32,000 nt of DNA from Pedobacter ginsengisoli (GCF_002736205.1 NZ_CP024091.1:2383555-2415554); one strand, 5' to 3'. Shown: positions 1,058 through 26,685, numbered from the stretch's first letter. The notes: generated from the sequence alone by a model not told the origin. Program-made: numbers and translations.

Positions 1058-1080
1058 CCGGTAAGCTATTTACTTACCGG
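1058..1080. terminator. Candidate bidirectional terminator hairpin at a convergent gene junction
   Basis: Inverted repeat CCGGTAAG-N7-CTTACCGG (8-bp perfect stem, 7-nt loop). It lies in the 23-nt gap between two convergent genes and overlaps the stop codon of the minus-strand gene. There is no clear U-tract, and stems of this length can occur by chance in 32 kb. Confidence 0.3.
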
Positions 1081-3741: not shown

Positions 3742-3932
3742 ACGTATTTGGTTTATTTGTGTGTTTGGTATAACAAGAATACCATAAATACGTGAAATTC
3801 GCATCCTGTGCTGTCCTGTATCAACCAATTAAAAATAGCTATCATTCTAAATCAATAAGAAATACCATACCGTTCTTACAATTTGCACTTTTTGATAAAA
3901 TAATTAGCTTTATAAATGAAGCCAAATTTAAA

Positions 3933-4814
3933 ATGAAGAATTACCAGAAGTATCTTACTGTTAGTGAATTTGAAAAAAACTGGGGATTTTATGTAAATAC
4001 AGTTGGCTCAGCAAAAGTAGAGCCTAATAAAAACTACCCTAACAACCGCGAACATCCAATAGACCATTCATTTACCTGGGATAAAGGAAGAATACTTGAT
4101 GGTTATTACCTTGTTTTTATTACAAAAGGTGAAGGTTTGCTGGAATCTGCAAAAACCAAAGCACACAATATTAAAGAGGGCACCTGTTTCTTTTTATTTC
4201 CGGGTGTATGGCACCGATACAAACCCCACCCTAAATATGGATGGGAAGAGTATTGGGTAGGTTTTAACGGAACTTACCCCGATGAATTGATGAAAAAAAG
4301 AATATTTACCCCCGAGAATCCATTTATTGATGTTGGCCTTAATGAAGATCTGCTTCAGCTTTTTCATACACTTATTAAAACTGTTGCCGCAGCAGAAATA
4401 GGTTATCGACAAATTGTATCTGGACTTACTCTTCAAATTTTAGGCCTGGTAAATGCAATATCAAAATATAAAACACCTGAAATTGGAAACCAGTCTAAAC
4501 TCATCTCAAAGGCAAAATTTCTTTTACAGGAATCCATTGAGAACCCAGTAAATTTAGAAGAAATGGTAAAGGATTTGCCCATGGGCTATTCGAGATTCAG
4601 AAAGCTCTTTAAAGAAACAACCGGTTTATCACCAAATCAGTACCACCTTAATCTTAGATTAGATAAAGCAAAGGATTTACTTACCTCAACCAATTTAACA
4701 ATTAATGAAGTAGCTTACCAAACCGGCTTTGATTCTATATTTTACTTCTCTCGTCTGTTTAAGAAAAAGAATGGACTGCCCCCTAAAGAATACAGGCTTG
4801 GCAAACACCCCTAA
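3933..4814 (+). CDS. AraC-family transcriptional regulator (cupin-like sensor domain + HTH_AraC)
   Basis: The C-terminus has a double helix-turn-helix AraC signature (LEEMVKDLPMGYSRFRKLFKETTGLSPNQYHLNLRLDKAKDLLTSTNLTINEVAYQTGFDSIFYFSRLFKKKNGLPPKEYR). The N-terminus is a cupin-like ligand domain. I moved the start from 3792 to the ATG at 3933 (MKNYQKY...), because the 47-aa extension reads through the divergent promoter region. Confidence 0.85.
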   Translation: MKNYQKYLTVSEFEKNWGFYVNTVGSAKVEPNKNYPNNREHPIDHSFTWDKGRILDGYYLVFITKGEGLLESAKTKAHNIKEGTCFFLFPGVWHRYKPHPKYGWEEYWVGFNGTYPDELMKKRIFTPENPFIDVGLNEDLLQLFHTLIKTVAAAEIGYRQIVSGLTLQILGLVNAISKYKTPEIGNQSKLISKAKFLLQESIENPVNLEEMVKDLPMGYSRFRKLFKETTGLSPNQYHLNLRLDKAKDLLTSTNLTINEVAYQTGFDSIFYFSRLFKKKNGLPPKEYRLGKHP

Positions 4815-4841: not shown

Positions 4842-7319
4842 CTATTTTGACAATCTAACAGATTCATCAAAAAATATCCCGCTCACTGCAGCATTTTCGC
4901 CCCTTACATGGTTAATCCGAATTCTTATGCTTCCTGAATAATTAAAGATCAGGTATTTTCCCTTTTGATAGTTCTTGATTAATTGAACCGGGGATATAAG
5001 TTTGAGCGTTTTTGCATCGAACAACTCCACAGCCGATCTTCTTTCTTTATTGTCCCAATCTAAAAAATACAATGCTATTTGGTGGTGTTCAGCTCCCCTA
5101 ACCTCCACATCCATTGTTATGGTTTGTAAAGTAGGGTTAGGATCTTTGGTTGTAATTGCCCCAAAGCTGCCACTGCGCCCTAATGTATCACTTAATACCC
5201 TCTTATCTGCAGGGAGCTTCAAGTAAACATTGTTTTCATTTTTTAACTTTACAGAGGATACATATAGAGGTAGTTTCTCTAAGTGCTTTTTATTCTCGAA
5301 GGAATTAAACAAAATAAATCCTTCCTTTCCGTAACAACCTTTCCAGTTTCCTGAAGTTAAGCTATCCTGTAAAAATGTATTAACAGGATAGCTCCACGGC
5401 AAACTTTTAACTTGCACAACCTTGTTAACAGACTTGTAGACTACTTTATATTCATATTTCCCTGGCTTCAGATTATCTATATTGATGTAACCATCTTTAA
5501 TTTTAAATCCATTTTCATTCAAAATTGGCTTTCCGTTTAAAAAAAGAGCCTTAACAGTATTTCCTCCTATCGGAATAGCAACCCGTTTAGCAAGAGTTCC
5601 TTTAGGTATTTGCAATGTAGTTAGCCCTGATTTTACATTAAAACTGGCGTAGATTAATCCTTTTAATGTTGGTGTGCTTCCGTTAACATACGAGATTGTA
5701 TCTCCAAGGTGAGGTACAATTTCAAAAACCTTAAAGCCCGGTTCCATTGGTTTTATACCCAGCACCTCTTCGGACAACCATTTAACAACTCCTGCACTCC
5801 ATGGGTGTGTTAAACTTGTATATCCACACTGGTTATTAGGTGGAGCATCATTTTTATCCAAAATTGCATTCCAGCTTGGCCTGTATACTTCAAAAAATGT
5901 CGTTCCACCGTATTTTATTTGCCCGCCCCAGCAATCCTTAACCGCACTTATCGCTTCTTCATACTTCTGCATTTTTGCCATGGCCCCTAGGATGAAGTAT
6001 TCATTAAATGGAGAATATGATAAGCGGTTTACCCGATCCGTATAATTACGCTGATAAAACAGTGCATTTTCTTTAGGTGTTGTGAGGCCTGTATTAATGG
6101 CATCTGCAGAGGCATGAAGGCCAAAATCATTTTGCCAATTCTTTTTCTTTCTTTCTTCAGCAAATTTTTCGCTGGCATAAGTGGTATATTTCTGTGCCAG
6201 ATCAGACCTTCCAATTTGTTTCATTAGATGAGCAAATTCTACCCATGATCGTATAGTAAGCATAGAATAAGCATATTGAGATTCCCGGATATTAGGATTT
6301 TCGAAGCCTGCTCCCAAACGCTCATCCCAACCATAAAAACCTAACTTAGGAGATTTACCAAAATGCTGATAAGCTATATTAAGTTTATTGCAAGCGTTAT
6401 CAATGTATTTTTGGACGAATTCAAGATCGCCTGTATAATTTGCATAATCGATAAGACTTAAAACCCAATACAGAGAATAGCTTAAAATACCATTATTTAA
6501 ATCTGCTGTATTGATAGTATTGGCTTTAACAAAATCATAATTCCCAAAGGCAACCATTGATGCGGCCTGTGATGGATAAGCATCACCAGTCCATGAGTGA
6601 CGGTCACTTCTTTCCATTAATATTGCTCCAAAATAATCTTTCTGAAGATTTAGCTTAACGGTATATGCCCCGGTATACCATATTCTGGTCAATTCCGAAT
6701 CGCTACAGGAAAAGCTCCCTTGATAGTTTACCGGTTTAACCTGGCAAATCAAACGAAAGTTCTTAATGTGCCAGGTTTGTTTATGCGAGTGCACATTTAT
6801 CCAACCAAACCTAACTCCTTCATAAAGCTCAGGATTTAATTCTAATCGGTAAGTCTGACCATGTTTTACAGGAACCATAGTTTTAAGTGGACGTAATGCA
6901 CCGCTATTTACAATTGCAGGTTCATTATATTCACTGATACTCATTGTTATACTATCCATTAAATCGTCCGATTCAAATTCAAGCCAACCAGCATTAGTCT
7001 GCCCAAAATCGAAACAAACGGAGCCCTTTCCCTGTACAACAATAACATTATTTTTCTTAAACTCCCCCATCTTAAAGGCTTCAGGAGTAGAAGTTTTCCA
7101 GCTAATTGGCCGGAGATTATAACTTTCTAAACCATCTGATGCTTTAGGAACAGCCCAGCTATAACTGATAAGCGGGTCAGGTGAAAATGGGTTTTCAGTT
7201 AAGTTCTTCTTAGCGGAAATTGGTGGATAGATTCCACTTTGCGCATATACAGCTTGGATGCAAATTACAGAGAATACCAAAAAAGTAATAACAAAACGTA
7301 CACGCGCTATATAGATCAT
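4842..7319 (-). CDS. Secreted six-hairpin glycoside hydrolase, alpha-L-rhamnosidase (GH78)-like, with an extra C-terminal domain
   Basis: Sec signal peptide (FLVFSVICIQAVYAQ). The motif MERSDRHSWTGDAYPSQ resembles the GH78 (D/E)R..WTGDA motif. SLYWVLSLIDYANYTGDLEFVQKY and SLTHPWSAGVVKWLSEEVLGIKPMEPGF match the (alpha/alpha)6 rhamnosidase-type core. The family assignment comes from motif memory only. Confidence 0.6.
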   Translation of the reverse strand: MIYIARVRFVITFLVFSVICIQAVYAQSGIYPPISAKKNLTENPFSPDPLISYSWAVPKASDGLESYNLRPISWKTSTPEAFKMGEFKKNNVIVVQGKGSVCFDFGQTNAGWLEFESDDLMDSITMSISEYNEPAIVNSGALRPLKTMVPVKHGQTYRLELNPELYEGVRFGWINVHSHKQTWHIKNFRLICQVKPVNYQGSFSCSDSELTRIWYTGAYTVKLNLQKDYFGAILMERSDRHSWTGDAYPSQAASMVAFGNYDFVKANTINTADLNNGILSYSLYWVLSLIDYANYTGDLEFVQKYIDNACNKLNIAYQHFGKSPKLGFYGWDERLGAGFENPNIRESQYAYSMLTIRSWVEFAHLMKQIGRSDLAQKYTTYASEKFAEERKKKNWQNDFGLHASADAINTGLTTPKENALFYQRNYTDRVNRLSYSPFNEYFILGAMAKMQKYEEAISAVKDCWGGQIKYGGTTFFEVYRPSWNAILDKNDAPPNNQCGYTSLTHPWSAGVVKWLSEEVLGIKPMEPGFKVFEIVPHLGDTISYVNGSTPTLKGLIYASFNVKSGLTTLQIPKGTLAKRVAIPIGGNTVKALFLNGKPILNENGFKIKDGYINIDNLKPGKYEYKVVYKSVNKVVQVKSLPWSYPVNTFLQDSLTSGNWKGCYGKEGFILFNSFENKKHLEKLPLYVSSVKLKNENNVYLKLPADKRVLSDTLGRSGSFGAITTKDPNPTLQTITMDVEVRGAEHHQIALYFLDWDNKERRSAVELFDAKTLKLISPVQLIKNYQKGKYLIFNYSGSIRIRINHVRGENAAVSGIFFDESVRLSK

Positions 7320-17382: not shown

Positions 17383-18756
17383 ATGAGTTCTCGCAGACGG
17401 TTTCTTAAAGAGGCAGCATTGCTAGCTGGAGGTACATTTATAGCGTCATCTTCTGTAGGAAATTTTTTCATCCCTAAAAAGAAAAAAGTCATTATTATAG
17501 GTGCAGGATTTGCTGGTTTGTCTGCCGGCTATGAACTCTATAAGAGAAACATTGATTTTGAAATTATTGAATGCCGAAAAGAAGTTGGGGGCAGGGTATT
17601 TTCCCATACAATAGATGAAAAGGAAAAGCTCATCATTGAACTGGGAGCAGAATGGGTTGGAGAAGATCATACACTGCTTCGCAGTCTTTGCAATCAGTTT
17701 AATCTTCCGCTGGATAATAATCAGTTTAAAACCCAGGTTATCTACAAAAACAACTACTACCAATCACTTGATGAAATTATAACACCACAATGGAGTGAAA
17801 CGTATGACAAATTGATTTCAGGCTATCAGAAATTAAATGAAGCTCAAAAGGATACCCTTGGAAAAAAGCTTGACAAAATTGATTGGTGGCGTTACCTTGT
17901 AAACAATGGTTGCAAAGGGGTTGATTTGGATTTAAGAGAGTTAATAGACAGCACAGATTTTGGTGAAAGTATACGCAATGTATCTGCATATTCAGCTCTT
18001 GATGAATATGCAAAAAGCAGTAAAAATTCCATGAACGAAATGGATTACAAAATAAGAGGAGGAAATCAACAACTGGCATTTAAATTTAAATCATTATTTT
18101 CTGACAAGATAAAACTAAACACCAGGGTAAAAAAGGTAGTACAAGGCAACAAGGTACATGTACATTGTGAAGGTGGCTACATTGCCCAAGGCGATAAACT
18201 AATCTGCACTGCTCCTACTTTTGCTGTAAAAAAGATTGACTGGCAGCCAGCTCTTCCATCATCCATGGCTTATGCAATAGATGCGTTACAATATGCACGT
18301 ATCAACAAAAATGCATTCGAATTTAACAGCCGTTTCTGGAAAGATGAAAGTTTCGATATGATTACAGACACATCGGGTCATTATTTCTATCATGCCACAA
18401 AAAATCAAAAGTCAGAAAAGGGTGTTCTAATTTCATATACTATCGGAGACAAAGCGGCTGTTGTTGCCAACCAAACTGAAAAATGGAGAGCTGAGATGGT
18501 ACAACAGTCTTTACAAGCCGCTTTTCCTAATGTAAATTCAATGTTAGAAAACCAGGTAAACTATTATTGGGGCAATAATGAGCTATCGATGGGCGCCTAT
18601 GCAATGTATGGAAAAGGGCAATGGTTTGATTTATTTCCCAAATTAAATGCACCTCATATCCATACTCATTTCGCTGGCGAACACTTGTCTGAAAACTGGC
18701 AAGGGTTTATGGAAGGTGCATTGGAAACAGGCAAACAAGCAGCTCATAAAATATAA
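17383..18756 (+). CDS. Tat-exported flavin-containing amine oxidase family protein
   Basis: Twin-arginine signal SRRRFLKEAALLAGG. FAD motif VIIIGAGFAGLSAGYEL...ECRKEVGGRV. C-terminal HFAGEHLSENWQGFMEGALETGKQAA, typical of the monoamine/polyamine/L-amino-acid oxidase fold. Confidence 0.8.
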   Translation: MSSRRRFLKEAALLAGGTFIASSSVGNFFIPKKKKVIIIGAGFAGLSAGYELYKRNIDFEIIECRKEVGGRVFSHTIDEKEKLIIELGAEWVGEDHTLLRSLCNQFNLPLDNNQFKTQVIYKNNYYQSLDEIITPQWSETYDKLISGYQKLNEAQKDTLGKKLDKIDWWRYLVNNGCKGVDLDLRELIDSTDFGESIRNVSAYSALDEYAKSSKNSMNEMDYKIRGGNQQLAFKFKSLFSDKIKLNTRVKKVVQGNKVHVHCEGGYIAQGDKLICTAPTFAVKKIDWQPALPSSMAYAIDALQYARINKNAFEFNSRFWKDESFDMITDTSGHYFYHATKNQKSEKGVLISYTIGDKAAVVANQTEKWRAEMVQQSLQAAFPNVNSMLENQVNYYWGNNELSMGAYAMYGKGQWFDLFPKLNAPHIHTHFAGEHLSENWQGFMEGALETGKQAAHKI

Positions 18757-18774
18757 AAGAACAGACAACAAGAA

Positions 18775-19572
18775 ATGAGGTTAAATAATATTGGTTTTAG
18801 CTTGATGCTACTTTGCGGCTCTATATCTATTGCAAATGCACAACAGAGTAAAGTAGTTACCCTTGACAATTTCTTTAATCATGAAACAAAAAAAGACAAG
18901 GATGGAAATGATATCAGGTTTCATTATACATGGGAAGATCAAACACTAAATGGATATTCCATACTTGGTAACATTTTTAAAGCGAATGGATTTCAAATTA
19001 AAAACCTTGATAGCGGGCCAACGCTTACTTCCCTAAAAAGCACCGACATATACATTATTGTTGATCCGGACAATACCAGGGAAGCACCAAATCCAAATTA
19101 CATTAACAAACAACATATCCATACTATTACCAAATGGGTAAAAGCCGGAGGCATCTTGGCATTACTTGCCAATGATAGTGCTAATACTAACTTAACTCAG
19201 TTAAATGTTCTGGCAAAAAACTTTGGTATTAATTTTTCCAATAAAAACAGAAACATGGTAAAAGGGAAAAATTATGAAACAGGAACAGTAAACGTTCCAC
19301 AAGGAAATGATGTATTTACTGCCTCTAAAAAATTCTATATAAAGGAACTTTCAATTCTTCAGTTAAATGCACCAGCCCAAGCTTTAATTACAGAACAGAA
19401 TGACATCATTATGGCTACGGCAAAATATGGAAAAGGCTTTGTTTTTGCCCTTGGCGACCCATGGATTTATAATGAATATGTTGATGGAACCCGAATTCCA
19501 TCAACATACGAAAACTATAATGGTGCAGTTGAACTGGTAAAATGGCTTAGTTCAAAAATATCTCATCAATAA
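18775..19572 (+). CDS. Secreted hypothetical protein, DUF4350/class-I glutamine-amidotransferase-like fold
   Basis: Signal peptide (LLCGSISIANAQ). The pattern DIYIIVDPDN...ITKWVKAGGILALLAND...LAKNFGINF resembles DUF4350/ThuA-like domains. It lies 18 nt downstream of the amine oxidase. The family call is tentative. Confidence 0.45.
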   Translation: MRLNNIGFSLMLLCGSISIANAQQSKVVTLDNFFNHETKKDKDGNDIRFHYTWEDQTLNGYSILGNIFKANGFQIKNLDSGPTLTSLKSTDIYIIVDPDNTREAPNPNYINKQHIHTITKWVKAGGILALLANDSANTNLTQLNVLAKNFGINFSNKNRNMVKGKNYETGTVNVPQGNDVFTASKKFYIKELSILQLNAPAQALITEQNDIIMATAKYGKGFVFALGDPWIYNEYVDGTRIPSTYENYNGAVELVKWLSSKISHQ

Positions 19573-21703
19573 ATAACCAGGCCGGCTGTCCTTTACCCGG
19601 ATGCCATTCGGGTAATTTTTTAAAGTTTTTGCCCACTATCTTTACGCACGAAACATTTCTAGGTTCAAATTTCGCATCCAATTTTAATAGTGCATTCCCT
19701 TCATCTTTAACCGGCATTTGGTTCTTTATAACCTTCAATAATTTAAGACTTTTTTTATCAGCCCCACCCCAAATCTCTACCTCTTGCGGAAGCAAAATAT
19801 AAGCCTGTACCTGTCGCATTACATTAAGCGTTACAGATTTTAAAGATATTGGTTGCTTAAAGAACATTATAGCCTCCATATTATTCTCTCTAAAACCAAT
19901 CCATTTACCATTATTAACATCAAAATCACCTAGCTGATTATCAAGCAGCACCTTTGGCCCCTCAGATTTGTACTTTTCATTTGCCGGTAATAGAAATGCC
20001 ATACTATCGGGTTTATAATTGCTCTGATAAAAGTTAAAACTTACCACATCGCTGCTATACCATCCCGCTTTATAAGCTTTTACTTTAAGGGTAGCAGTTT
20101 CCTTAATCACAATTTCCTTATCATACAAAAGAGATTTAAGACTATCTGGTTCTGAGCCATCAGTAGTATACCTGATTTGTACCCCATTTATAGGATGCTT
20201 AACCTGAAGGGACAAAGAACTTTTAAAAATAGAAACATCGGTAGTCAAACGAGGCTGATTTAATTTAACCGGATTCTTTCCATCATCTTTAAACCCACCT
20301 ATCACCGTTAGCTCCTTATTCATTTTCTGTAGCTGGGCTATCTCAGTCTCTTTTAAACCGGTATTCCATAAGGTCAGTTCTTTAAGGCTTTTCATACCAA
20401 TAAGCTGCTTTACTGAACCAAAATTAACCTTAGTTCCCGACAACGATAAGGCATTTAAATGATTTAAAGATTTTAGATACTTGAGCCCATCACCTTTAAC
20501 ATCAGTAAAATTCAGATTTAATTTACGCAGGTTTCCAAACCCTCCAATTATCTTTAACTCTTCGTCTTTCACCGGTAAATTATTCAGATTTAATGATACA
20601 ATCTGCTTTTTAAGCGGTTCCAGTTCTTTAACCGCCTCAGGCTTATAAATACTTCTGTTATATATATTTACCTCCAAAGCTGGCGAGACTTTATCCAACG
20701 GATAAATTACGCGGTAATTATTGTTTAGCTTCTTAACCGTGGACTCATCAGCAGCTGCGAAGTCATAATTTTCCTCAACAGCACCTACAGGTCCAAGTAA
20801 CGAGGCCGATAGCACCCTTAAAGAATCACTTTTTGGTAATTCAATAACCTTTTTCTTTAAATCGGCATTATCTTTTACCCATAATGCTAAAATGGTAATT
20901 TCTTCAGGTGTTAACTGAGATTTACTCTTAGGAGGCATGTGCTTTTTATCATCAACCGGAAGATGTATCCGTTCTAGCAATAAGCTTATTTCAGGTTTCC
21001 CTGGCACAAACAATTTACCATTCTTGCCACCTTTAAGCATAGATTTGGCATCAGTAAGAATTAAACTACCCTTCGCTTTTTCTAAGTTATGACAGCTTAA
21101 ACACTTCTCATTAAATATGGGCATTACCACATCATCAAATATTACAGCTTTGTCAACCGGAACCTTTTCTTTAGCCGGTATTAAAGCTGCCAGTACAAAA
21201 TTATCTCCGTGCGTTAATGTAGCACCATAATGGCCTGTAACAATTAAACACAAAACAGTAATAACGGCACCTGCTTTTGCTACAGAAGCCTTATACCACG
21301 AAGAATTTCTGGACCAATAGATAATTGAAGAAAAAAATACAATACTTACCCCTGTCCATTTATGCCATTGCAAAGTGCTGCCACTATACCCCTCCTCTTT
21401 AGACAGGAACAGCCCCATAATAACAGTTACTGCAGCCAGTAATACCCCTGTTAGCAATAACCCGGTAGTGAAATTTTGATACAATTTCTCTCCGGTATAT
21501 GATTCCTTAAAGCGAAAGAATTCCAGAAGCATTGCCAACAACAAAAGCACAATCGGAAAATGCAGAATCATTGGGTGCAACCTTCCTAGTGGCTGTAGCC
21601 AATATGGAACGGCAATCTTCTCTCCAAATATTAATAAAAAGACAATAAAGATATTTAACGCAAATAATGCATTTTCTGTAAAACCCTTAAGCGTAATTCT
21701 CAT
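19547..21703 (-). CDS. Membrane-anchored cytochrome c-domain protein: His-rich 5-TM (DUF2231-like) + PSCyt1 CxxCH + LRR + chitobiase-C-like + discoidin-like domains
   Basis: Five N-terminal TM helices carry conserved-looking histidines (RLHPMILHFP, WHKW, GHYGATLTHG). CLSCH lies at nt 21089-21103, followed by KGG..G...PG......LL.RI....MPP. Four ~24-aa leucine-rich repeats are present (NLRKLNLNFTDVKGDGLKYLKSLNHLNALSLSGTKV...). It also has VQIRYTTDGSEPD...LKVKAYKAGWYSSDV and a C-terminal F5/8-type-C-like region ending in WLFIDEIFLN. Confidence 0.75.
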   Translation of the reverse strand: MRITLKGFTENALFALNIFIVFLLIFGEKIAVPYWLQPLGRLHPMILHFPIVLLLLAMLLEFFRFKESYTGEKLYQNFTTGLLLTGVLLAAVTVIMGLFLSKEEGYSGSTLQWHKWTGVSIVFFSSIIYWSRNSSWYKASVAKAGAVITVLCLIVTGHYGATLTHGDNFVLAALIPAKEKVPVDKAVIFDDVVMPIFNEKCLSCHNLEKAKGSLILTDAKSMLKGGKNGKLFVPGKPEISLLLERIHLPVDDKKHMPPKSKSQLTPEEITILALWVKDNADLKKKVIELPKSDSLRVLSASLLGPVGAVEENYDFAAADESTVKKLNNNYRVIYPLDKVSPALEVNIYNRSIYKPEAVKELEPLKKQIVSLNLNNLPVKDEELKIIGGFGNLRKLNLNFTDVKGDGLKYLKSLNHLNALSLSGTKVNFGSVKQLIGMKSLKELTLWNTGLKETEIAQLQKMNKELTVIGGFKDDGKNPVKLNQPRLTTDVSIFKSSLSLQVKHPINGVQIRYTTDGSEPDSLKSLLYDKEIVIKETATLKVKAYKAGWYSSDVVSFNFYQSNYKPDSMAFLLPANEKYKSEGPKVLLDNQLGDFDVNNGKWIGFRENNMEAIMFFKQPISLKSVTLNVMRQVQAYILLPQEVEIWGGADKKSLKLLKVIKNQMPVKDEGNALLKLDAKFEPRNVSCVKIVGKNFKKLPEWHPGKGQPAWLFIDEIFLN

Positions 21704-21708
21704 AAAAA

Positions 21709-22734
21709 TTATGCGCGCGTAAATTTATATGGATAAACTTTTCCAGATGCCCATTGAGCTACATAAAGGTTTTCATCATCATCTACACATACATCATGTG
21801 GGTTCAGGAAAATCTTTTCAGCCTGAGACATTGGCTGTAATAAGCCATCAGTATAAACCGGTGCAGAACCACCAATATTAGATACTACCTTATTATTCTT
21901 ATCTAAAATGGTAACAAAACCACTGTTTTCTTTATTCAGGTCCGGCGATCTAAGTACCGCTGCATATAAGTAATCATTTTTAATAACCGGTCTGCATACA
22001 CAGGCTCCCGGAAGAGCAATTACCTCTTTTAAATTACCTGCCATATCAAAACGTTTAAAACAATTACGTGTACGATCTGTAACAATCAACGATGCTTCTC
22101 CATGCCTTTTATCAATGCAAACGCCATGTGCATTATCCAGGTTCTTTGTTTCCGGGCCTCTTCCACCAAAATAGCTTAACAATTTACCTTCAGCATTATA
22201 ATGCAAAACATACTGCAAACCGTAACCATCGGCAATAAAGAAATCACCATTATCTGCAACTGCTACCTCTGTAGGCACATATTCTTCATTCTTTTTATAC
22301 AAACCCGTTTCCATCGGACAATCTAGTGTCATCAGGATCTTCCCTTCCAAAGTAGTTTTATATACCTGATGCCTGTTGGTATCTGTAATAAAAAGAAACT
22401 CTTTGCCACCTTCTTTCGAAAGCGTTAATCCATGCGCACCAGGAAACTCATGCCCCCATGAATCCAACAGCTTTCCTGATTTATTATAGATAAGAACATT
22501 ATTTTTGGTCTCGTTAGTTAACAAAATAATTCGTCCTTTTTTATCCTGCACCATTTCGTGGCAATCGTTTACAGGGTTCTTTAAGGGGTTTAATTGTCCC
22601 CATTTAGCATCCATGGTATAGCGCATATTGTCGTGGCCATACACAGGTCCTTTTGAATTTGCCAATGTATCTTTCATAATAAAAAATCCTGCAGAAACTG
22701 CGGTTGTATGTTTTAAAAATTCTCTTCTTTTCAT
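21709..22734 (-). CDS. Tat-exported six-bladed NHL beta-propeller, peptidyl-alpha-hydroxyglycine alpha-amidating lyase (PAL)-like
   Basis: Tat signal MKRREFLKHTTAVSAG. The blade motifs resemble PAL: GAHGLTL...ITDTNRHQVYK, VPTEVAVADNGDFFIADGYGLQYVLHYNAEGK, NAHGVCID...VTDRTRNCFKRF, NPHDVCVDDDENLYVAQW. The three His, the Tyr and the Arg positions appear retained. This comparison is from memory of the PAL sequence. Confidence 0.7.
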   Translation of the reverse strand: MKRREFLKHTTAVSAGFFIMKDTLANSKGPVYGHDNMRYTMDAKWGQLNPLKNPVNDCHEMVQDKKGRIILLTNETKNNVLIYNKSGKLLDSWGHEFPGAHGLTLSKEGGKEFLFITDTNRHQVYKTTLEGKILMTLDCPMETGLYKKNEEYVPTEVAVADNGDFFIADGYGLQYVLHYNAEGKLLSYFGGRGPETKNLDNAHGVCIDKRHGEASLIVTDRTRNCFKRFDMAGNLKEVIALPGACVCRPVIKNDYLYAAVLRSPDLNKENSGFVTILDKNNKVVSNIGGSAPVYTDGLLQPMSQAEKIFLNPHDVCVDDDENLYVAQWASGKVYPYKFTRA

Positions 22735-22743
22735 AAAATATTG

Positions 22744-24195
22744 TTATGCTATAATGTCTTTAATTACTTTACCCGCTACATCAGTTAATCTATACCTACG
22801 GCCCAGATGCTTAAATGTAAGCTTCTCATGATTTAACCCCAATTGATTAAGAACTGTTGCATGAAAATCGTTTACATGCACAGGATCTTTTACAATATTA
22901 TATCCAAACTCATCCGATTCTCCGTATACAATACCGGGCTTAATTCCGCCCCCCGCCATCCAAATACTAAAGCAGCGCGGATGATGGTCACGACCATAAT
23001 TATCTTTGGTCATAGCCCCCTGGCTGTAATTGGTACGGCCAAACTCACCTCCCCATATCACCAGCGTTTCATCAAGCAATCCTCTTTGCTTCAAATCAGT
23101 TATTAAAGCTGCCGATGCCTGATCCACATCTTTAGCCTGTCCGGCCATTTCATTAGGTAAATTACCATGCTGATCCCATCCCTGATGATACAATTGTACA
23201 AAACGCACCCCATTTTCACTTAGTTTGCGCGCCAGTAAACAATTGGCAGCAAAAGTTCCTGGAACCAGACAATCTGGGCCGTAAAGTTTTATAATATCGT
23301 CAGGTTCTTTAGATAGGTCTGTTATTTCGGGAACCGCAGTTTGCATCCTGTATGCCATTTCGTACTGCTGAACTTTGGCATTTATCTCCGGATCGCCAAA
23401 TTCCTTGTACGACATTTCATTCAGCTCAGCCAGTTTATCAAGCATTTTTCTTCTCTCAAACCTGTTCAGGCCTTCCGGATCTTTTAAATAAAGCACCGGA
23501 TCCTCTCCGCTGCTAAACTGCACACCCTGATGTGTGGAGTCAAGAAATCCATTAGTCCACAGTTTTGAGTATACACCTTGCCCATTACCTTTACCTCTTG
23601 AAAGAAGTACAGTGAACGCAGGCAGGTTTTTATTTTCACTGCCTAAACCGTAACTAAGCCATGCTCCCATACTTGGCCTATTTCCCTGCTGCGCTCCTGT
23701 CTGAAAAAAGGTTAATGCCGGATCATGATTTATTGCTTCCGTAAACATCGACCTGATAATGCAAATATCATCAACAACTTTAGCCGTATGCGGGAATAAA
23801 TCACTAATCCACGCCCTAGACTGGCCGTATTGCTTAAAATCATAATAAGAACCTACCAACGGAAAAGACGATTGATTGGCTGTCATACCTGTAAGGCGCT
23901 GCCCAGCCCTGATAGATGCAGGAAGCTCCTGCCCCATCATTTCTCTAAGCTTTGGCTTATAATCAAACGATTCCAGTTGTGAGGGTGCACCGTTCTGAAA
24001 AAGATAAATCACCCTTTTTGCTTTAGGGGCAAAATCCGGAATCCCAGGCGGAAGCCCTGCTTCTTCAAAACTACCGGCAAACAGATCAGGAATTAATAAA
24101 GATCCCAATGCAACACTCCCCAGCCCCAAACTTAATTTTGAAAGGAAACGGCGTCTGTTAAAGTTAAGCCCATGCTCCAAAATATTCTTTTCCAT
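22744..24195 (-). CDS. DUF1501-domain protein (alkaline-phosphatase/sulfatase-superfamily fold), Tat-exported
   Basis: Tat signal NRRRFLSKLSLGLG. Signature VIWGGEFGRT...GRDHHPRCFSIWMAGGGIKPG. It begins 2 nt after the upstream DUF1553 gene. Confidence 0.85.
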   Translation of the reverse strand: MEKNILEHGLNFNRRRFLSKLSLGLGSVALGSLLIPDLFAGSFEEAGLPPGIPDFAPKAKRVIYLFQNGAPSQLESFDYKPKLREMMGQELPASIRAGQRLTGMTANQSSFPLVGSYYDFKQYGQSRAWISDLFPHTAKVVDDICIIRSMFTEAINHDPALTFFQTGAQQGNRPSMGAWLSYGLGSENKNLPAFTVLLSRGKGNGQGVYSKLWTNGFLDSTHQGVQFSSGEDPVLYLKDPEGLNRFERRKMLDKLAELNEMSYKEFGDPEINAKVQQYEMAYRMQTAVPEITDLSKEPDDIIKLYGPDCLVPGTFAANCLLARKLSENGVRFVQLYHQGWDQHGNLPNEMAGQAKDVDQASAALITDLKQRGLLDETLVIWGGEFGRTNYSQGAMTKDNYGRDHHPRCFSIWMAGGGIKPGIVYGESDEFGYNIVKDPVHVNDFHATVLNQLGLNHEKLTFKHLGRRYRLTDVAGKVIKDIIA

Positions 24196-24197
24196 AA

Positions 24198-26519
24198 TTA
24201 GGATTTTGTAATGGTTTCTTCTAAATTATATATTGCTGCAATTACCTCCATCATTGCTGCAAGTTCAGTTTTATTGTTTTTTTGTGAAAGCGGATATTCT
24301 CCAACGGCCAAAACTTTATCTGCATTTGCCTTTTGTTTAAACACTTTCAACTGATCTGCATAGTAAGCGGTAAGCACCTGTACTTCCTCTTTCTTAGGCT
24401 TTCTGCATACAATTCTTCTAAATGCTGTACCTATCTTAGCTTCTGCAGTTCCTTTACCTTGTAATAACTTATCGGCCAAAACGCGCGAGGCTTCCAACAC
24501 GGTTGGATCATTCATCATTGCCAAAGCCTGAAGCGGAGTATTTGTTTTTAATCTTTTAACCTCACATTGGTCTCTGTTACTGGCATCAAAAATTCCCATT
24601 ACCGGAGGCGGAACAGTTCTTTTAATAAAAGTATACATGCCTCTGCGATACAGGCTTTCGTTATGATCCTGCTTATAGTTAGCCAATAATCCCCTACCTG
24701 ATGTTGCGGCTTCCCAAAGGCCAGGTGGCTGATAAGGCTTAACACTTGGCCCGCCTATTGTTTTAACCAACAAACCACTGCTTGAAAGCACTACATCTCT
24801 AACAAGTTCGGCAGGGATACGATAGCGTGGAGCCCTGGCCAGAAGTATGTTCTCAGGATCTGTCTTCAATTTTTCTGCTGATACAACAGCTGATTGTCTG
24901 TACGTTGCCGATGTTACTATTTGTTTAACCAGGCGCTTAATGTCCCATCCATGGTTAATAAAATCAACCGCAAGCCAGTCTAGCAATTCAGGATGCGAAG
25001 GTAATTCGCCCTGCATACCAAAATCTCCGGAAGTTTTAACAATGCCCCGTCCAAAAAACTCTTGCCAAACCTGATTTACAAATACCCTTGATGTAAGCGG
25101 ATTTTTCTTATCAAACAGCCATTGTGTTAGCCCCAGTCTATTTTTAGGATATTTGTCGCTAAATGAAAGTAATGATTTAGGAGTTCCAGCTTCAACCACT
25201 TCGCCATGAGCATCATACACCCCTCTTTTTAGCAAATAAGTTTTACGAACCGTATCCTGATCGCCCATAACAGAAACGATTAGCTTATTCGTATCCTGCT
25301 TATTTACAAATTTCAGTATTTCCTTAACGTCAGCATTGCTGATTTCCATTAGTGGTTTTTTGGCATAAGTTTCCGGACCACCTACAACCGACTCAAGCCC
25401 TACTTCTTTTACATTATTGAAAAAGGCAAATACCTGATAATATTCTTTTTGTGAAAATGGATCGTATTTATGATCATGGCAATGTGCACACTCTAACGTA
25501 ACACCAATGATGGCTTTTCCAAAAGTATTTGTCCTATCGGTAACATACTCAACCCTATATTCTTCATCAATTACCCCGCCCTCTTCCGTTATCTTATGGT
25601 TTCTGTTAAATCCTGTTGCCAAAAGCTGCTCTTTTGAAGCATTTGGCATCAAATCGCCAGCAAGTTGCCAGCTAATGAATTTATTATAGGGCATATTTTC
25701 ATTAAATGCATGAATTACCCAATCTCTCCATGGCCACTGACTACGGTAATTATCATCCTGATAACCATGAGAATCTGCATATCTGGCAACATCCAGCCAG
25801 TGTAACGCCATTCTTTCGCCATAAGCCGGACTTGCTATCAAAGATTCCACAACTTTCTCGTAAGCATTGCTGCTGGAGTCGGCTAAAAATTTATCCATCA
25901 TCTCTACAGATGGTGGCAAACCGGTAATATCCAGGCTTGCGCGTTTTAACAACCTTTCCTTATCCGCTTCCGGATTTGGTGCAATCCCTTTATGCTCGAG
26001 TTTATCAAGCACAAAATAATCAATCTCATTTTTAGCCCACTTCGCATCTTTTACTTTTGGTGTTTGAGGTAATTTAGGAGGTGTAAAAGCCCAATGTTTC
26101 TCATATTTCGCACCCTGCTTAATCCATTTCTCTATTATAGATATCTCGTGGGCAGTTAATTTAAGATTAGATGACTTTGGAGGCATTATGTATGCAGTAT
26201 CCTGCGTAGATATCCTTAAAAATACTTCAGAAGCATTAGGCTTAAATGGCACTAGCGCATGTGCTGATGGGTTTTCTTTTAAAGCTTTATAAGCTTCTGA
26301 TGCAATATCCAATCGCAAATCGGCTTCCCGTTTATTTGCATCGGGGCCGTGGCAGGCGAAACATTTATCAGAAAGAATTGGCCTTACATTAAAATTATAG
26401 CTGATGCTATCTGGCATCTGTTCTTCACCAACCTGATTAGAAGACGGACCATTACATGCCTGTATAACATATACAATAGCAAAAAAAATCAGCATTAAAT
26501 AAAAAAGCCTACGACACAT
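24198..26519 (-). CDS. PSCyt1 + PSCyt2 (DUF1549) + PSD1 (DUF1553) planctomycete-type cytochrome c protein
   Basis: The ORF-track start at 26552 is a TTG. I prefer the ATG at 26519 (MCRRLFYLMLIFFAIVYVIQAC, a lipoprotein-like signal). CFACH lies at nt 26349-26363 with the downstream MPP motif. The DUF1549 block is ERLLKRASLDITGLPP...HWLDVARYADSHGY. A second CAHCHDHKYDP lies at nt 25476-25490. The C-terminus is DUF1553-like. Confidence 0.85.
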   Translation of the reverse strand: MCRRLFYLMLIFFAIVYVIQACNGPSSNQVGEEQMPDSISYNFNVRPILSDKCFACHGPDANKREADLRLDIASEAYKALKENPSAHALVPFKPNASEVFLRISTQDTAYIMPPKSSNLKLTAHEISIIEKWIKQGAKYEKHWAFTPPKLPQTPKVKDAKWAKNEIDYFVLDKLEHKGIAPNPEADKERLLKRASLDITGLPPSVEMMDKFLADSSSNAYEKVVESLIASPAYGERMALHWLDVARYADSHGYQDDNYRSQWPWRDWVIHAFNENMPYNKFISWQLAGDLMPNASKEQLLATGFNRNHKITEEGGVIDEEYRVEYVTDRTNTFGKAIIGVTLECAHCHDHKYDPFSQKEYYQVFAFFNNVKEVGLESVVGGPETYAKKPLMEISNADVKEILKFVNKQDTNKLIVSVMGDQDTVRKTYLLKRGVYDAHGEVVEAGTPKSLLSFSDKYPKNRLGLTQWLFDKKNPLTSRVFVNQVWQEFFGRGIVKTSGDFGMQGELPSHPELLDWLAVDFINHGWDIKRLVKQIVTSATYRQSAVVSAEKLKTDPENILLARAPRYRIPAELVRDVVLSSSGLLVKTIGGPSVKPYQPPGLWEAATSGRGLLANYKQDHNESLYRRGMYTFIKRTVPPPVMGIFDASNRDQCEVKRLKTNTPLQALAMMNDPTVLEASRVLADKLLQGKGTAEAKIGTAFRRIVCRKPKKEEVQVLTAYYADQLKVFKQKANADKVLAVGEYPLSQKNNKTELAAMMEVIAAIYNLEETITKS

Positions 26520-26548
26520 GCGATAAATATTTGGTTTCACTTGTACAG

Positions 26549-26564
26549 ACAATCTATAGATTGT
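26549..26564. promoter_or_regulatory. Perfect 16-bp palindrome upstream of the four-gene operon
   Basis: ACAATCTATAGATTGT is self-complementary. It lies 30-45 nt upstream of the preferred ATG (26519), within the 166-bp region shared with the divergent GNAT gene. Confidence 0.35.
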
Positions 26565-26685
26565 ATGCTTTTATAAATGTAAAACAAATACTTTAAAATA
26601 TCAATTTTTTATTTTTTAAAACAAAAGAATCATATTTATAATTCTTAAATTGTATAGAACATTTCTCAACTAATATTTTCTAATT

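What the first reader, a model, noticed from the sequence alone, without database searches (positions are those of the whole stretch)
19547..26564. Four-gene exported haem/metalloenzyme operon built around the uncharacterised DUF1549-DUF1553 + DUF1501 pair
Seen in sequence:
- Four minus-strand genes (24198-26519, 22744-24195, 21709-22734, 19547-21703) are separated by only 2, 9 and 5 nt, so they are almost certainly one transcript.
- Every product is exported or membrane-anchored: a lipoprotein-like signal (VIQAC), two twin-arginine signals (NRRRFLSK, KRREFLKH) and a 5-TM anchor.
- Three CxxCH haem-c motifs are present (nt 26349-26363, 25476-25490, 21089-21103).

Established knowledge: PSCyt1/PSCyt2(DUF1549)/PSD1(DUF1553) proteins paired with DUF1501 proteins form a massively expanded gene pair in Planctomycetes and Verrucomicrobia, and the pair also occurs in Bacteroidota. 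To my knowledge the pair has no experimentally defined function.

Inference: here the pair is extended by a PAL-like lyase and by a membrane-anchored cytochrome c carrying LRR and discoidin-type binding domains. That combination suggests a periplasmic oxidative processing machine, linked to the respiratory chain, acting on a bound macromolecular (glycan or peptide-like) substrate. The operon is flanked by GH105 and GH95 genes. This is the best candidate in the window for an undescribed system.
Basis: partly seen in the sequence, partly recalled or inferred. Interest (0 to 1): 0.8.

Follow-up and report, generated by a model that had tools for sequence, protein, structure and literature searches.

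The report
Conserved cytochrome, DUF1501 and PAL-like lyase operon
A four-gene operon in a soil Pedobacter joins the uncharacterised cytochrome + DUF1501 gene pair to an amidating-lyase-like enzyme and a membrane cytochrome; the set recurs in dozens of Bacteroidota species and, with two parts fused, in Planctomycetota, which gives a first chemical clue to what the pair does.

Summary
Four minus-strand genes are separated by 2, 9 and 5 nt. The three CxxCH motifs sit at the stated coordinates, and the signal peptides and domains are as described.

- g1 is a lipoprotein with PSCyt1-PSCyt2-PSD1 domains.
- g2 is a Tat-exported DUF1501 protein.
- g3 is a Tat-exported six-bladed propeller. [quoted passage not shown]
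- g4 combines a His-rich DUF2231 membrane domain, a PSCyt1 haem domain, LRRs and the C-terminal tail of a GH20 hexosaminidase.

The cassette is self-contained. All four genes are adjacent in 51 of 61 evaluable species-level Bacteroidota genomes, in three gene orders, with no conserved neighbours, so the flanking GH genes are incidental. In a Planctomycetota MAG, g4's membrane-cytochrome-LRR part is fused to g3, downstream of g1 and g2 homologues.

No published function was found.

Best reading (confidence about 0.4, largely inferred): a membrane-tethered periplasmic machine for two-step oxidative cleavage. A haem-linked oxidation is followed by PAL-type splitting of the hydroxylated intermediate, with electrons exchanged with the membrane through g4.

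It is a new variant of a known but uncharacterised module.

The parts
24198..26519 (-). g1: lipoprotein-type exported protein of 773 aa. Domains are PSCyt1 (nt 26175-26363), PSCyt2/DUF1549 (nt 25407-26027) and PSD1/DUF1553 (nt 24363-25142). Signal and lipobox are at nt 26454-26519.
   Evidence: Pfam scan. ORF and start codon. The Cys after the leader is conserved in about 48 of 56 orthologues. No relative in the PDB.
26349..26363 (-). CFACH haem-c motif of the g1 PSCyt1 domain. An IMPP motif downstream is the likely Met ligand.
   Evidence: Haem attachment itself was not tested.
25476..25490 (-). CAHCH motif of the g1 PSCyt2 (DUF1549) domain.
22744..24195 (-). g2: Tat-signal DUF1501 protein of 483 aa. 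It belongs to the alkaline-phosphatase/sulfatase-like superfamily but has no sulfatase C/S-x-P-x-R motif.
   Evidence: Pfam E 5e-154, covering the full model. The twin-arginine motif is invariant. Only marginal similarity to S1 sulfatases, over the 'VD..LK..GLLDETLVIW' segment. No [CS]x[PA]xR motif. Identity to orthologues is 72-94% across Bacteroidota and 56% to a Planctomycetota homologue.
21709..22734 (-). g3: Tat-signal six-bladed NHL propeller of 341 aa, PAL-like. Putative metal ligands are H101, H203 and H313; Y171, R221 and D314 complete the site.
   Evidence: AF2 model with pLDDT 94.7. Foldseek top PDB hit is PAL 3FVZ, E 1.2e-15. Residue alignment to PAL. Invariance of the key residues.
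19547..21703 (-). g4: inner-membrane cytochrome of 718 aa.
- DUF2231 membrane domain, nt 21194-21703.
- PSCyt1 haem-c domain, nt 20876-21118.
- LRR region, about nt 20294-20656.
- CHB_HEX_C_1/Fn3_assoc, nt 20033-20221.
- GH20-tail-like C-terminal domain, nt 19550-20020.
   Evidence: Pfam scan. Invariant H43, H48, H114, H158, H165, C201, C204, H205 and M256. C-terminal domain matches 6Q63 residues 624-774 at E 1.4e-22. Hydropathy profile.
21089..21103 (-). CLSCH haem-c motif of the g4 PSCyt1 domain.
26520..26685 (-). Upstream intergenic region of 166 nt, the presumed promoter and 5' leader of the operon. It contains GAAACCAAATA about 10-20 nt before the ATG.
   Evidence: This is the only sizeable non-coding gap. 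AAACC[AG] occurs in the last 70 nt upstream in 16 of 49 loci, against about 1.8 in shuffles; the pattern was chosen post hoc. No Rfam match. No exact TAnnTTTG here.

Best explanation
The four genes encode one envelope-located, membrane-tethered enzyme system.

**Shown**
- The operon architecture.
- Export or anchor signals on all four products.
- Three CxxCH sites within cytochrome-type domains.
- A PAL-type catalytic constellation in g3.
- Conserved co-location of the four genes, and a g4N::g3 fusion in another phylum.

**Inferred mechanism**
1. A substrate is oxidised in the periplasm at a carbon attached to N (or O). The g1 (two haem motifs) + g2 (DUF1501 metalloenzyme) pair would do this.
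2. Electrons travel between g1 and the PSCyt1 haem of g4.
3. From there they pass through g4's His-rich DUF2231 membrane domain, which probably binds a haem b or a metal near the periplasmic face, to or from the quinone pool.
4. The alpha-hydroxylated (carbinolamide or hemiaminal-like) product is split by g3, using a His3-bound metal plus Tyr and Arg, into an amide or amine and a carbonyl compound. PAL does the same after PHM in peptide amidation.
5. g4's LRRs dock g3. Its GH20-like C-terminal modules hold the complex on a glycan or on the wall.

The substrate is unknown. The very high conservation of g2 and g3, and the absence of variable binding modules in g1, argue for one common compound rather than diverse polysaccharides.
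For: **Operon.** Gaps are 2, 9 and 5 nt. Median gaps across 51 loci are 3, 18 and 18 nt.

**Linkage.**
- 51 of 61 evaluable species-level genomes have all four genes adjacent.
- Three orders occur: g1-g2-g3-g4 in 44 loci, g3-g1-g2-g4 in 4, and g1-g2-g4-g3 in 3.
- No flanking gene is conserved.
- Linkage persists at lower identity. L093 has g1 54%, g2 67%, g3 49% and a split g4C. L092, related to a Planctomycetota MAG protein, has g1, g2 and g3. L087 has g3 followed by g1.

**Fusion.** P0300 (Planctomycetota MAG) and P0313 combine a DUF2231-like membrane domain, PSCyt1, LRRs and a g3-like propeller. P0300 lies directly after a PSCyt1/PSCyt2/PSD1 gene and a DUF1501 gene that is 56% identical to g2.

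**Independent redox context.** A g3 homologue sits next to a PSCyt1 protein, a prokaryotic cytochrome b561 and a PQQ quinohaemoprotein.

**PAL likeness.**
- Foldseek rank 1 is 3FVZ, TM 0.69/0.72.
- The phmmer alignment puts g3 H101, Y171, H203 and H313-D314 on PAL's PHGL, DGY, PHS and PHD motifs.
- H101, H203 and H313 are invariant, and Y171 is at least 90% conserved, in 37 sequences down to 28% identity.
- PAL is a Zn enzyme that cleaves the C-alpha-N bond after a redox hydroxylation (PMC6529398). Its active-site Arg binds substrate (PMC10303134).

**g4 membrane domain.** Five histidines and one glutamate (E61) are invariant across phyla. By my topology reading, the five histidines all sit at the periplasmic ends of helices.
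Against: - No component has a recognisable hydroxylase or dehydrogenase cofactor domain. DUF1501 belongs to a hydrolase/mutase-type superfamily, so the oxidative first step is conjecture.
- Haem binding, metal content, complex formation and the direction of electron flow are all untested.
- Ten genomes keep a g3 orthologue away from the other three genes. L092 lacks an adjacent g4.
- PAL's other substrate-binding Arg (R533, numbering from memory) has no obvious counterpart in g3. This rests on my manual reading only.
- The R221-R706 equivalence rests on the NHL-repeat register and on my memory of the PAL sequence. No tool printed that alignment.
- The PAL step is spontaneous above neutral pH, so a dedicated lyase is not strictly required.
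- I could not model g1 or g2.
Confidence: 0.4

Rival explanations
1. g3 is itself the redox catalyst. In this reading it is a mononuclear Fe, Mn or Cu propeller oxidoreductase supplied with electrons by the g4 cytochrome and the membrane domain. It would not be a lyase. The g1/g2 pair would do a separate, possibly hydrolytic, step on the same substrate. The cassette would then be a small periplasmic branch of the respiratory chain.
For: - g3-type propellers are fused to, or adjacent to, c-type cytochromes and membrane cytochrome-b-like domains in three independent architectures.
- The Tat signal is conserved in the family. From general knowledge, Tat export is typical of proteins that must load a cofactor or a weakly binding metal in the cytoplasm.
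- Conserved extra residues that I could not place on PAL (H34, C58-H59 in 'DCHEM') suggest a site beyond the PAL one.
Against: - The full PAL set is retained and invariant: His3, Tyr, the Ca-site Asp, and the Arg by motif register. That fits lyase chemistry better.
- No known redox propeller ranks above PAL in the fold search.
- In eukaryotic PAM the lyase is likewise fused to its redox partner, so fusion to a cytochrome does not require g3 to be redox-active.
Confidence: 0.25
2. The cassette is an accessory of glycan or sulfated-glycan breakdown. g2 would act as a sulfatase- or phosphatase-like hydrolase. g3 would act as a lactonase- or hydrolase-type propeller. g4 would act as a carbohydrate-binding anchor. 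The haem domains would play a sensing or maturation role rather than carrying catalytic electrons.
For: - GH88/105-type and GH95 genes flank the operon in this window.
- The g4 C-terminus equals the tail of a GH20 hexosaminidase, and it also carries CHB_HEX_C_1.
- g2 is labelled 'sulfatase' in some records and shows a marginal sulfatase-like segment.
- PSCyt genes neighbour sulfatases and carry CBMs in Verrucomicrobia (PMC5615132).
- g3 has weak SGL/lactonase Pfam hits.
Against: - The GH flanks are not conserved. The commonest flanking family occurs in only 9 loci and on either side. The Chitinophaga and other Pedobacter loci have unrelated neighbours.
- g2 has no sulfatase C/S-x-P-x-R motif, and the PDB similarity is not significant at E 0.28.
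- g3 matches PAL, not lactonases, in its catalytic residues.
Confidence: 0.15
3. The adjacency carries no functional meaning. These would be four independent exported proteins that happen to be neighbours.
For: Ten genomes carry g3 alone. No experiment links the genes.
Against: - The genes are co-located in 51 genomes across several orders.
- Three different gene orders all retain adjacency.
- Intergenic gaps are tiny.
- The set is conserved at 47-56% identity in other phyla.
- A gene fusion joins g4N to g3.

Confidence: 0.02

Closest known systems
DUF1501 + PSCyt1/PSCyt2/PSD1 gene modules of the PVC superphylum (Kamneva et al. 2012, PMC3542564; He et al. 2017, PMC5615132)
   Same: - g1 and g2 are full-length members of exactly these families, adjacent as in the published modules.
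- They carry the same twin-arginine and signal-peptide features.
- They have the same predicted 'membrane-targeted electron transport' character.
- The function is unknown in both cases.
   Different: - The published 'most complex' cluster is DUF1501 + a PPC-like protein + PSCyt1/Big_2/PSCyt2/PSD1 + PSCyt1/WD40. Here the two extra genes are a PAL-like NHL propeller and a DUF2231-PSCyt1-LRR-GH20-tail membrane protein.
- This cassette appears in the scan as one conserved locus in soil Bacteroidota, not as a massively expanded paralogue family.
- I found no description of this four-gene variant.
Eukaryotic peptidylglycine alpha-amidating monooxygenase system (PHM + PAL; PAL structure 3FVZ)
   Same: - g3 shares PAL's six-bladed propeller fold, ranking first in the fold search.
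- g3 shares PAL's metal His triad, catalytic Tyr and Ca-site Asp.
- In both systems the lyase is genetically coupled to redox proteins. PAL is fused to PHM. From general knowledge, PHM is fed across a membrane by cytochrome b561. One g3 homologue sits next to a prokaryotic cytochrome b561.
   Different: - Sequence identity is only about 18%.
- The cassette has no PHM-like copper monooxygenase. Its redox partners are c-type cytochromes and a DUF2231 domain.
- g3 is Tat-exported into a bacterial periplasm.
- The substrate is unknown and need not be a glycine-extended peptide.
- g3-family-specific conserved residues (H34, C58, H59) have no PAL counterpart that I could establish.
C-terminal region of Bacteroidota GH20 beta-hexosaminidases (PDB 6Q63)
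   Same: g4 residues 562-718 match 6Q63 residues 624-774 at E 1.4e-22. They are preceded, as in such enzymes, by a CHB_HEX_C_1/Fn3_assoc domain.
   Different: g4 has no glycoside-hydrolase catalytic domain. In g4 the two modules are appended to a membrane cytochrome. In some relatives they are encoded as a separate small protein.
S1 formylglycine-dependent sulfatases (a legacy annotation of g2)
   Same: Superfamily-level resemblance only. One helix-strand segment aligns weakly with arylsulfatase 7ALL and endo-4-O-sulfatase 6S21.
   Different: g2 has no C/S-x-P-x-R formylglycine motif. The PDB E-values are 0.28-1.9, which is not significant. g2 has GGEFG where sulfatases have SDHG or SDNG, by my reading of the alignment.

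Membership tests
Pfam DUF1501 (PF07394) | Full-length match to the family HMM above the gathering score. | tested here: met
   g2 scores 513.6 bits (cut-off 27), E 5e-154, covering model positions 1-390 of 390.
PSCyt1-PSCyt2-PSD1 architecture (PF07635/PF07583/PF07587) | All three domains in this order, each above its gathering score, with a CxxCH in both PSCyt1 and PSCyt2. | tested here: met
   g1 scores 51.6, 297 and 341 bits against cut-offs of 22, 29.8 and 28.5. CFACH is at aa 53 and CAHCH at aa 344.
DUF1501/PSCyt gene pair (Kamneva 2012) | The two genes are adjacent and co-oriented. | tested here: met
   The gap is 2 nt here. The median is 3 nt in 51 loci.
c-type cytochrome | Haem covalently bound to CxxCH, plus an axial ligand. 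| not testable with these tools
   The motifs and candidate Met ligands (IMPP in g1, HMPP in g4, with M256 invariant) are present. Attachment needs haem staining or mass spectrometry.
[quoted passage not shown] | Six-bladed NHL beta-propeller fold. | tested here: met
   AF2 model with pLDDT 94.7. 3FVZ is the top Foldseek hit, E 1.2e-15, TM 0.69/0.72.
PAL | Three histidines binding the catalytic Zn (H585, H690, H786 of rat PAM; numbering from memory). | tested here: met
   g3 H101, H203 and H313 align with the His of PAL's PHGL, PHS and PHD motifs. They are invariant in 37 homologues.
PAL | Catalytic Tyr (Y654) in the DGY motif. | tested here: met
   g3 ADGYG aligns with PAL SDGYC. Y171 is at least 90% conserved in A1 and invariant in A2.
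PAL | Active-site Arg (R706 in rat, R703 in human) that participates in substrate binding. | tested here: inconclusive
   g3 R221 in 'VTDRTRN' is invariant in A2. It sits in the same NHL-repeat register as PAL's 'ADRENGR'. That PAL segment was not printed by any tool and is recalled from memory. The role of the Arg is stated in PMC10303134.
PAL | Structural Ca site Asp next to the third His (D787). | tested here: met
   g3 PHD (H313-D314) aligns with PAL PHD. D314 is at least 90% conserved in A2.
PAL | Lyase activity on peptidyl-alpha-hydroxyglycine, and a partner PHM copper monooxygenase. | not testable with these tools
   No PHM-like gene is in the cassette or the window. Activity needs an enzyme assay. 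g3 is therefore filed as PAL-like, not as PAL.
Tat substrates | Twin-arginine motif (S/T-R-R-x-F-L-K) followed by a hydrophobic stretch. | tested here: met
   g2 has NRRRFLSK and g3 has KRREFLKH. The RR and F are invariant in orthologues. Actual Tat dependence is untested.
S1 sulfatase | C/S-x-P-x-R formylglycine motif and significant similarity to solved sulfatases. | tested here: not met
   No [CS]x[PA]xR motif in g2. The best PDB E-value is 0.28.
Polysaccharide utilisation locus (PUL) | Conserved SusC/SusD pair and glycoside hydrolases linked to the genes. | tested here: not met
   A SusC-like family occurs near the cassette in only 9 loci, on either side. No flanking family is conserved.
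Kamneva four-gene cluster (DUF1501; PPC-like; PSCyt1/Big_2/PSCyt2/PSD1; PSCyt1/WD40) | A PPC-like secreted protein, Big_2 in the PSCyt protein, and a PSCyt1/WD40 protein. | tested here: not met
   No PPC, Big_2 or WD40 hit in g1-g4. The analogy 'second PSCyt1 protein + beta-propeller' holds only loosely, as seen in the P0300 fusion.

The most novel reading that the evidence does not exclude
The cassette could be a haem- and quinone-pool-driven bacterial counterpart of the eukaryotic PHM/PAL (+ cytochrome b561) amidating machinery. In that reading the enigmatic DUF1501 + PSCyt2/PSD1 pair performs an alpha-carbon oxidation of an N- or O-linked substrate, and the PAL-like propeller completes the cleavage. 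This would assign a first reaction type (oxidative dealkylation or cleavage) to one of the most expanded unknown gene families of Planctomycetota and Verrucomicrobiota.
Probability: 0.2. Interest if true: 0.85.

Novelty: new variant of a known kind. Interest (0 to 1): 0.62.

Why it matters
The DUF1501 + PSCyt/PSD1 pair has been flagged since 2004-2012 as a highly conserved, massively duplicated, exported 'electron-transport-like' module of PVC bacteria. Nothing is known about its function.

This Bacteroidota cassette gives a tractable entry point:

- Each scanned genome's best g3 match lies in one compact, strongly conserved locus, and cultured hosts are available (Pedobacter, Chitinophaga, Mucilaginibacter).
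- One partner, g3, has solved-structure relatives and a catalytic site that predict a specific chemistry. That chemistry can be tested with a standard substrate such as alpha-hydroxyhippurate.
- Another partner, g4, predicts a physical link to the membrane redox pool.

If the two-step oxidative-cleavage model holds, it would define a new periplasmic route for C-N or C-O bond cleavage coupled to respiration. It would also give a working hypothesis for the many PVC paralogues. If it fails, the cassette is still a well-delimited four-protein system for pull-down, haem and metal analysis.

Tried and rejected
**Led nowhere**
It gave pLDDT 32.6 and was unusable, so no fold search was run.
- Alignment A1 was too diverse for the genome scan, so A2 was used instead.
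- PDB sequence or profile searches found nothing for g1 and nothing for the DUF2231 domain. For g2 they found only non-significant sulfatase hits.
- The PAL structure paper (PMC2993158 / PMID 19604476) is not held. PAL residue numbers are therefore from memory.
- Rfam found no RNA family in the window.
- The sigma-70 promoter and terminator scan was at background level and is not suited to Bacteroidota.
- No exact TAnnTTTG lies upstream of g1.

**Considered and rejected**
- GH105/GH95 context as a functional clue. The flanks are not conserved.
- g2 as an S1 sulfatase. It has no formylglycine motif.
- 'Solo' g3 genes as a separate paralogue clade. In the NJ tree they are interspersed with cassette-linked orthologues.
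- Identity with Kamneva's four-gene cluster. The accessory genes differ.

Full report
**1. Observation**

The window has 37.9% G+C. Its g2 and g4 are 100% identical to proteins labelled Pedobacter ginsengisoli.

Four minus-strand ORFs occupy 24198-26519 (g1, 773 aa from the ATG; a TTG at 26552 is an alternative start), 22744-24195 (g2, 483 aa), 21709-22734 (g3, 341 aa) and 19547-21703 (g4, 718 aa). The gaps are 2, 9 and 5 nt.

Pfam confirms every domain call:
- g1: PSCyt1 + PSCyt2 (DUF1549) + PSD1 (DUF1553).
- g2: DUF1501, E 5e-154, full model length.
- g3: NHL-repeat propeller.
- g4: DUF2231 + PSCyt1 + weak LRR_8 + CHB_HEX_C_1/Fn3_assoc.

The signals also hold:
- g1's leader ends in a Cys that recurs in about 48 of 56 orthologues.
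- The twin-arginine motifs of g2 and g3 are invariant among orthologues.
- g4 has five hydrophobic helices before its cytochrome domain.

**2. The neighbourhood is not part of the system**

In this window the operon lies between a GH88/105-type gene and two GH95 genes. A Tat-signal flavin amine oxidase, a DUF4350-like gene and a GNAT gene sit in between.

Elsewhere the flanks are unrelated. A Chitinophaga locus has gyrase and topoisomerase genes plus a two-component system. Another Pedobacter locus has a beta-helix protein and an MFS transporter. Clustering all flanking ORFs from about 70 loci gave no family present in more than 9 loci, and the commonest was a SusC-like family found on either side. 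The cassette is therefore autonomous, and the GH context is incidental.

**3. Conservation of the four-gene set**

A scan of one genome per species with a g3 alignment found at least 566 genomes with a relative. The best 80 are all Bacteroidota: Sphingobacteriales, Chitinophagales, Cytophagales and one Prolixibacteraceae.

| Category among the 80 loci | Count |
|---|---|
| All four genes adjacent | 51 |
| g3 alone with at least 6.5 kb on both sides | 10 |
| On truncated contigs showing partial cassettes | 19 |

Three gene orders occur: g1-g2-g3-g4 in 44 loci, g3-g1-g2-g4 in 4 and g1-g2-g4-g3 in 3. Retained adjacency through rearrangement is good evidence of functional coupling. Median identities to the window proteins are g1 68%, g2 82%, g3 71% and g4 46%. 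The two Tat-exported putative enzymes are therefore under the strongest constraint. The 'solo' g3 genes are interspersed with cassette-linked ones in a neighbour-joining tree, so they are displaced orthologues rather than a paralogue clade.

**4. Beyond Bacteroidota**

The all-against-all representative search with g3 found 145 clusters at E <= 1e-30. Several are fusions.

- P0300 (813 aa, annotated from a Planctomycetota MAG) and P0313 (739 aa) consist of a DUF2231-like membrane domain, PSCyt1, LRRs and a g3-like propeller. This amounts to g4's N-terminal two-thirds joined to g3.
- P0300 lies in a three-gene cluster after a PSCyt1/PSCyt2/PSD1 protein (1219 aa) and a DUF1501 protein that is 56% identical to g2. 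The start and stop codons overlap, and the contig has 71% G+C.
- L093 carries g1 (54%), g2 (67%), g3 (49%) and a separate protein equal to g4's C-terminal modules. L092, whose g3-like protein clusters with a Planctomycetota MAG protein, carries g1, g2 and g3. L087 has g3 followed by g1.
- L091 has g4-like, g3-like and an extra CHB_HEX_C protein.
- A more distant g3 homologue (39%) sits after a PQQ quinohaemoprotein, a stand-alone PSCyt1 protein and a prokaryotic cytochrome b561.

Two conclusions follow. First, g3 is a specific third partner of one subfamily of the DUF1501/PSCyt pair. Second, g3-type propellers are repeatedly wired to a PSCyt1 haem domain and a membrane cytochrome-like domain.

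**5. What g3 is**

The AF2 model is confident, with pLDDT 94.7. Its best match among solved structures is rat PAL (3FVZ), at E 1.2e-15 and TM 0.69/0.72, ahead of the non-enzymatic TRIM and Brat NHL domains.

The phmmer alignment with 3FVZ matches four g3 motifs to PAL motifs:

| g3 motif | PAL motif |
|---|---|
| 'AHGLT' | 'PHGLS' |
| 'ADGYG' | 'SDGYC' |
| 'AHGV' | 'PHSL' |
| 'PHDV' | 'PHDI' |

As I recall from Chufan et al. 2009, these correspond to the Zn ligands H585, H690 and H786, the catalytic Y654 and the Ca-site D787. That paper is not held, so the numbering is from memory.

H101, H203 and H313 are invariant in 37 homologues down to 28% identity, and Y171 is at least 90% conserved. R221 (invariant) occupies the register of PAL's active-site Arg, which participates in substrate binding (PMC10303134). 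That equivalence rests on motif register and memory.

PAL is a Zn-dependent six-bladed propeller. It cleaves the C-alpha-N bond of a carbinolamide made by a redox enzyme (PMC6529398).

g3 also has family-specific conserved residues that I could not map onto PAL: H34 and C58-H59 in 'DCHEM'. I therefore file g3 as PAL-like with an intact PAL-type site, not as a peptide-amidating enzyme.

**6. What g4 is**

The membrane domain has five histidines (H43, H48, H114, H158, H165) and one glutamate (E61) that are invariant from Pedobacter to the Planctomycetota fusions. Given that the c-type cytochrome domain must be periplasmic, my topology reading puts the five histidines at periplasmic helix ends. 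This is what a haem-b or metal site close to the haem c would look like. In L089 the corresponding place is taken by a bona fide cytochrome b561. No literature or PDB relative exists for DUF2231.

The rest of g4 runs as follows:
- PSCyt1, with invariant C201, C204 and H205, and M256 in HMPP.
- LRRs, which score weakly here. Homologues carry precomputed hits to PF12799 (LRR_4) and PF13855 (LRR_8), and to PF23598, which I did not look up.
- CHB_HEX_C_1.
- A 157-residue domain matching the C-terminal domain of GH20 hexosaminidase 6Q63 at E 1.4e-22.

**7. What g1 and g2 are**

They are full members of the published pair. g2 has no formylglycine motif. It resembles S1 sulfatases only marginally, in one helix-strand segment. 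The legacy 'sulfatase' label in some records is therefore unsupported. g1 has no solved relative. I could not obtain a usable model of g2.

**8. Literature**

Kamneva et al. (PMC3542564) described DUF1501 + PSCyt/PSD1 loci as a conserved, probably membrane-targeted electron-transport module of unknown function. They also described a different four-gene cluster. He et al. (PMC5615132) catalogued PSCyt architectures in Verrucomicrobia and stated that nothing is known of their function. Searches for the Pfam names and accessions, DUF2231 and bacterial PAL-like proteins returned no functional study.

**9. Mechanism**

*Shown:* a conserved, exported or membrane-tethered four-protein set; three cytochrome-type CxxCH sites; a PAL-type catalytic site; and genetic fusion of the lyase-like propeller to the membrane cytochrome.

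*Inferred (confidence about 0.4):* the g1/g2 pair carries out a haem-linked oxidation at a carbon bonded to N or O. Electrons move between g1's haems and g4's haem c, and through the DUF2231 domain to or from the quinone pool. g3, docked on g4's LRRs, splits the hydroxylated intermediate as PAL does. The GH20-like tail positions the complex on a glycan or the wall.

*Weak points:* no recognisable oxidase cofactor is present, DUF1501 belongs to a hydrolase-type superfamily, the substrate is unknown, and all biochemistry is untested.

*Main rival (0.25):* g3 is itself a redox metalloenzyme fed by the cytochromes. A glycan-hydrolytic accessory role (0.15) is weakened by the non-conserved flanks and the missing sulfatase motif. 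Chance adjacency is essentially excluded.

**10. Verdict**

It is a new variant of a known but uncharacterised module. It is interesting mainly because the PAL-like partner and the fusion evidence turn an old 'function unknown' family into a set of concrete, cheap experiments.

Noticed in passing
window 1066-3828 (-): A 920-aa protein carries a TIGR02603 haem-binding CxxCH domain (88.5 bits, above the 68.15 cut-off) and a partial TIGR02604 'PVC-type heme-binding CxxCH protein' region. This is a second PVC-style cytochrome family in the same Pedobacter window. It lies next to an AraC regulator (3792-4814) and a rhamnosidase-like gene (4842-7319).
   Followed up: partly
window 17383-19572 (+): A Tat-signal flavin amine oxidase (PF01593) is followed by a DUF4350-like protein. 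The pair is convergent with the operon, and the second gene overlaps g4's 3' end by 26 nt. The oxidase is also adjacent in the P. ginsengisoli Gsoil 104 locus (L009) but in no other locus.
   Followed up: partly
window 26520-26560 (-) and upstream regions of 49 loci: A short AAACC[AG] element (GAAACCAAATA here) lies within 70 nt upstream of the first cassette gene in 16 of 49 loci. Composition shuffles gave about 1.8 (maximum 8). Only 0-3 loci have it in more distal 70-nt windows. The pattern was chosen post hoc and the loci are related, so this is a lead only.
   Followed up: partly
L009 versus the window: The GTDB representative 'Pedobacter ginsengisoli Gsoil 104' has the syntenic locus (GNAT upstream, amine oxidase downstream). 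Its identity to the window is only 82% for g3 and 57% for g4. Yet the window's g2 and g4 are 100% identical to proteins of a 5.37-Mb record that is also named P. ginsengisoli. The two records probably belong to different species.
   Followed up: no
L035, L045, L052-L054, L060, L071, L076, L080, L084: Ten genomes carry a g3 orthologue (60-69% identity) with none of g1, g2 or g4 within at least 6.5 kb on either side. In a tree they sit next to cassette-linked orthologues. Whether the other three genes lie elsewhere in those genomes could not be checked.
   Followed up: partly
L089 32-4915: A g3 homologue (39% identity) follows a PQQ quinohaemoprotein dehydrogenase, a 318-aa PSCyt1 protein and a prokaryotic cytochrome b561, with a GMC oxidoreductase downstream on the opposite strand. 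This is an alternative redox context for the PAL-like propeller.
   Followed up: partly
L088 6228-9053: A g3 homologue (42% identity) lies directly after a PF01663 type-I phosphodiesterase/NPP, another alkaline-phosphatase-superfamily enzyme. This echoes the DUF1501-g3 pairing.
   Followed up: no
P0300 residues about 455-500: Between the LRRs and the propeller, the Planctomycetota fusion has a Cys-rich stretch (CPISGDEV...GFCCANCPATF). By eye it resembles a YHS/TRASH-type metal-binding motif. It is absent from P0313 and from g3/g4, and Pfam did not report it at E <= 0.001.
   Followed up: no
L036 3755-8477: One Sphingobacteriales MAG has two tandem g1 paralogues (65% and 64% identity) ahead of g2-g3-g4.
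   Followed up: no
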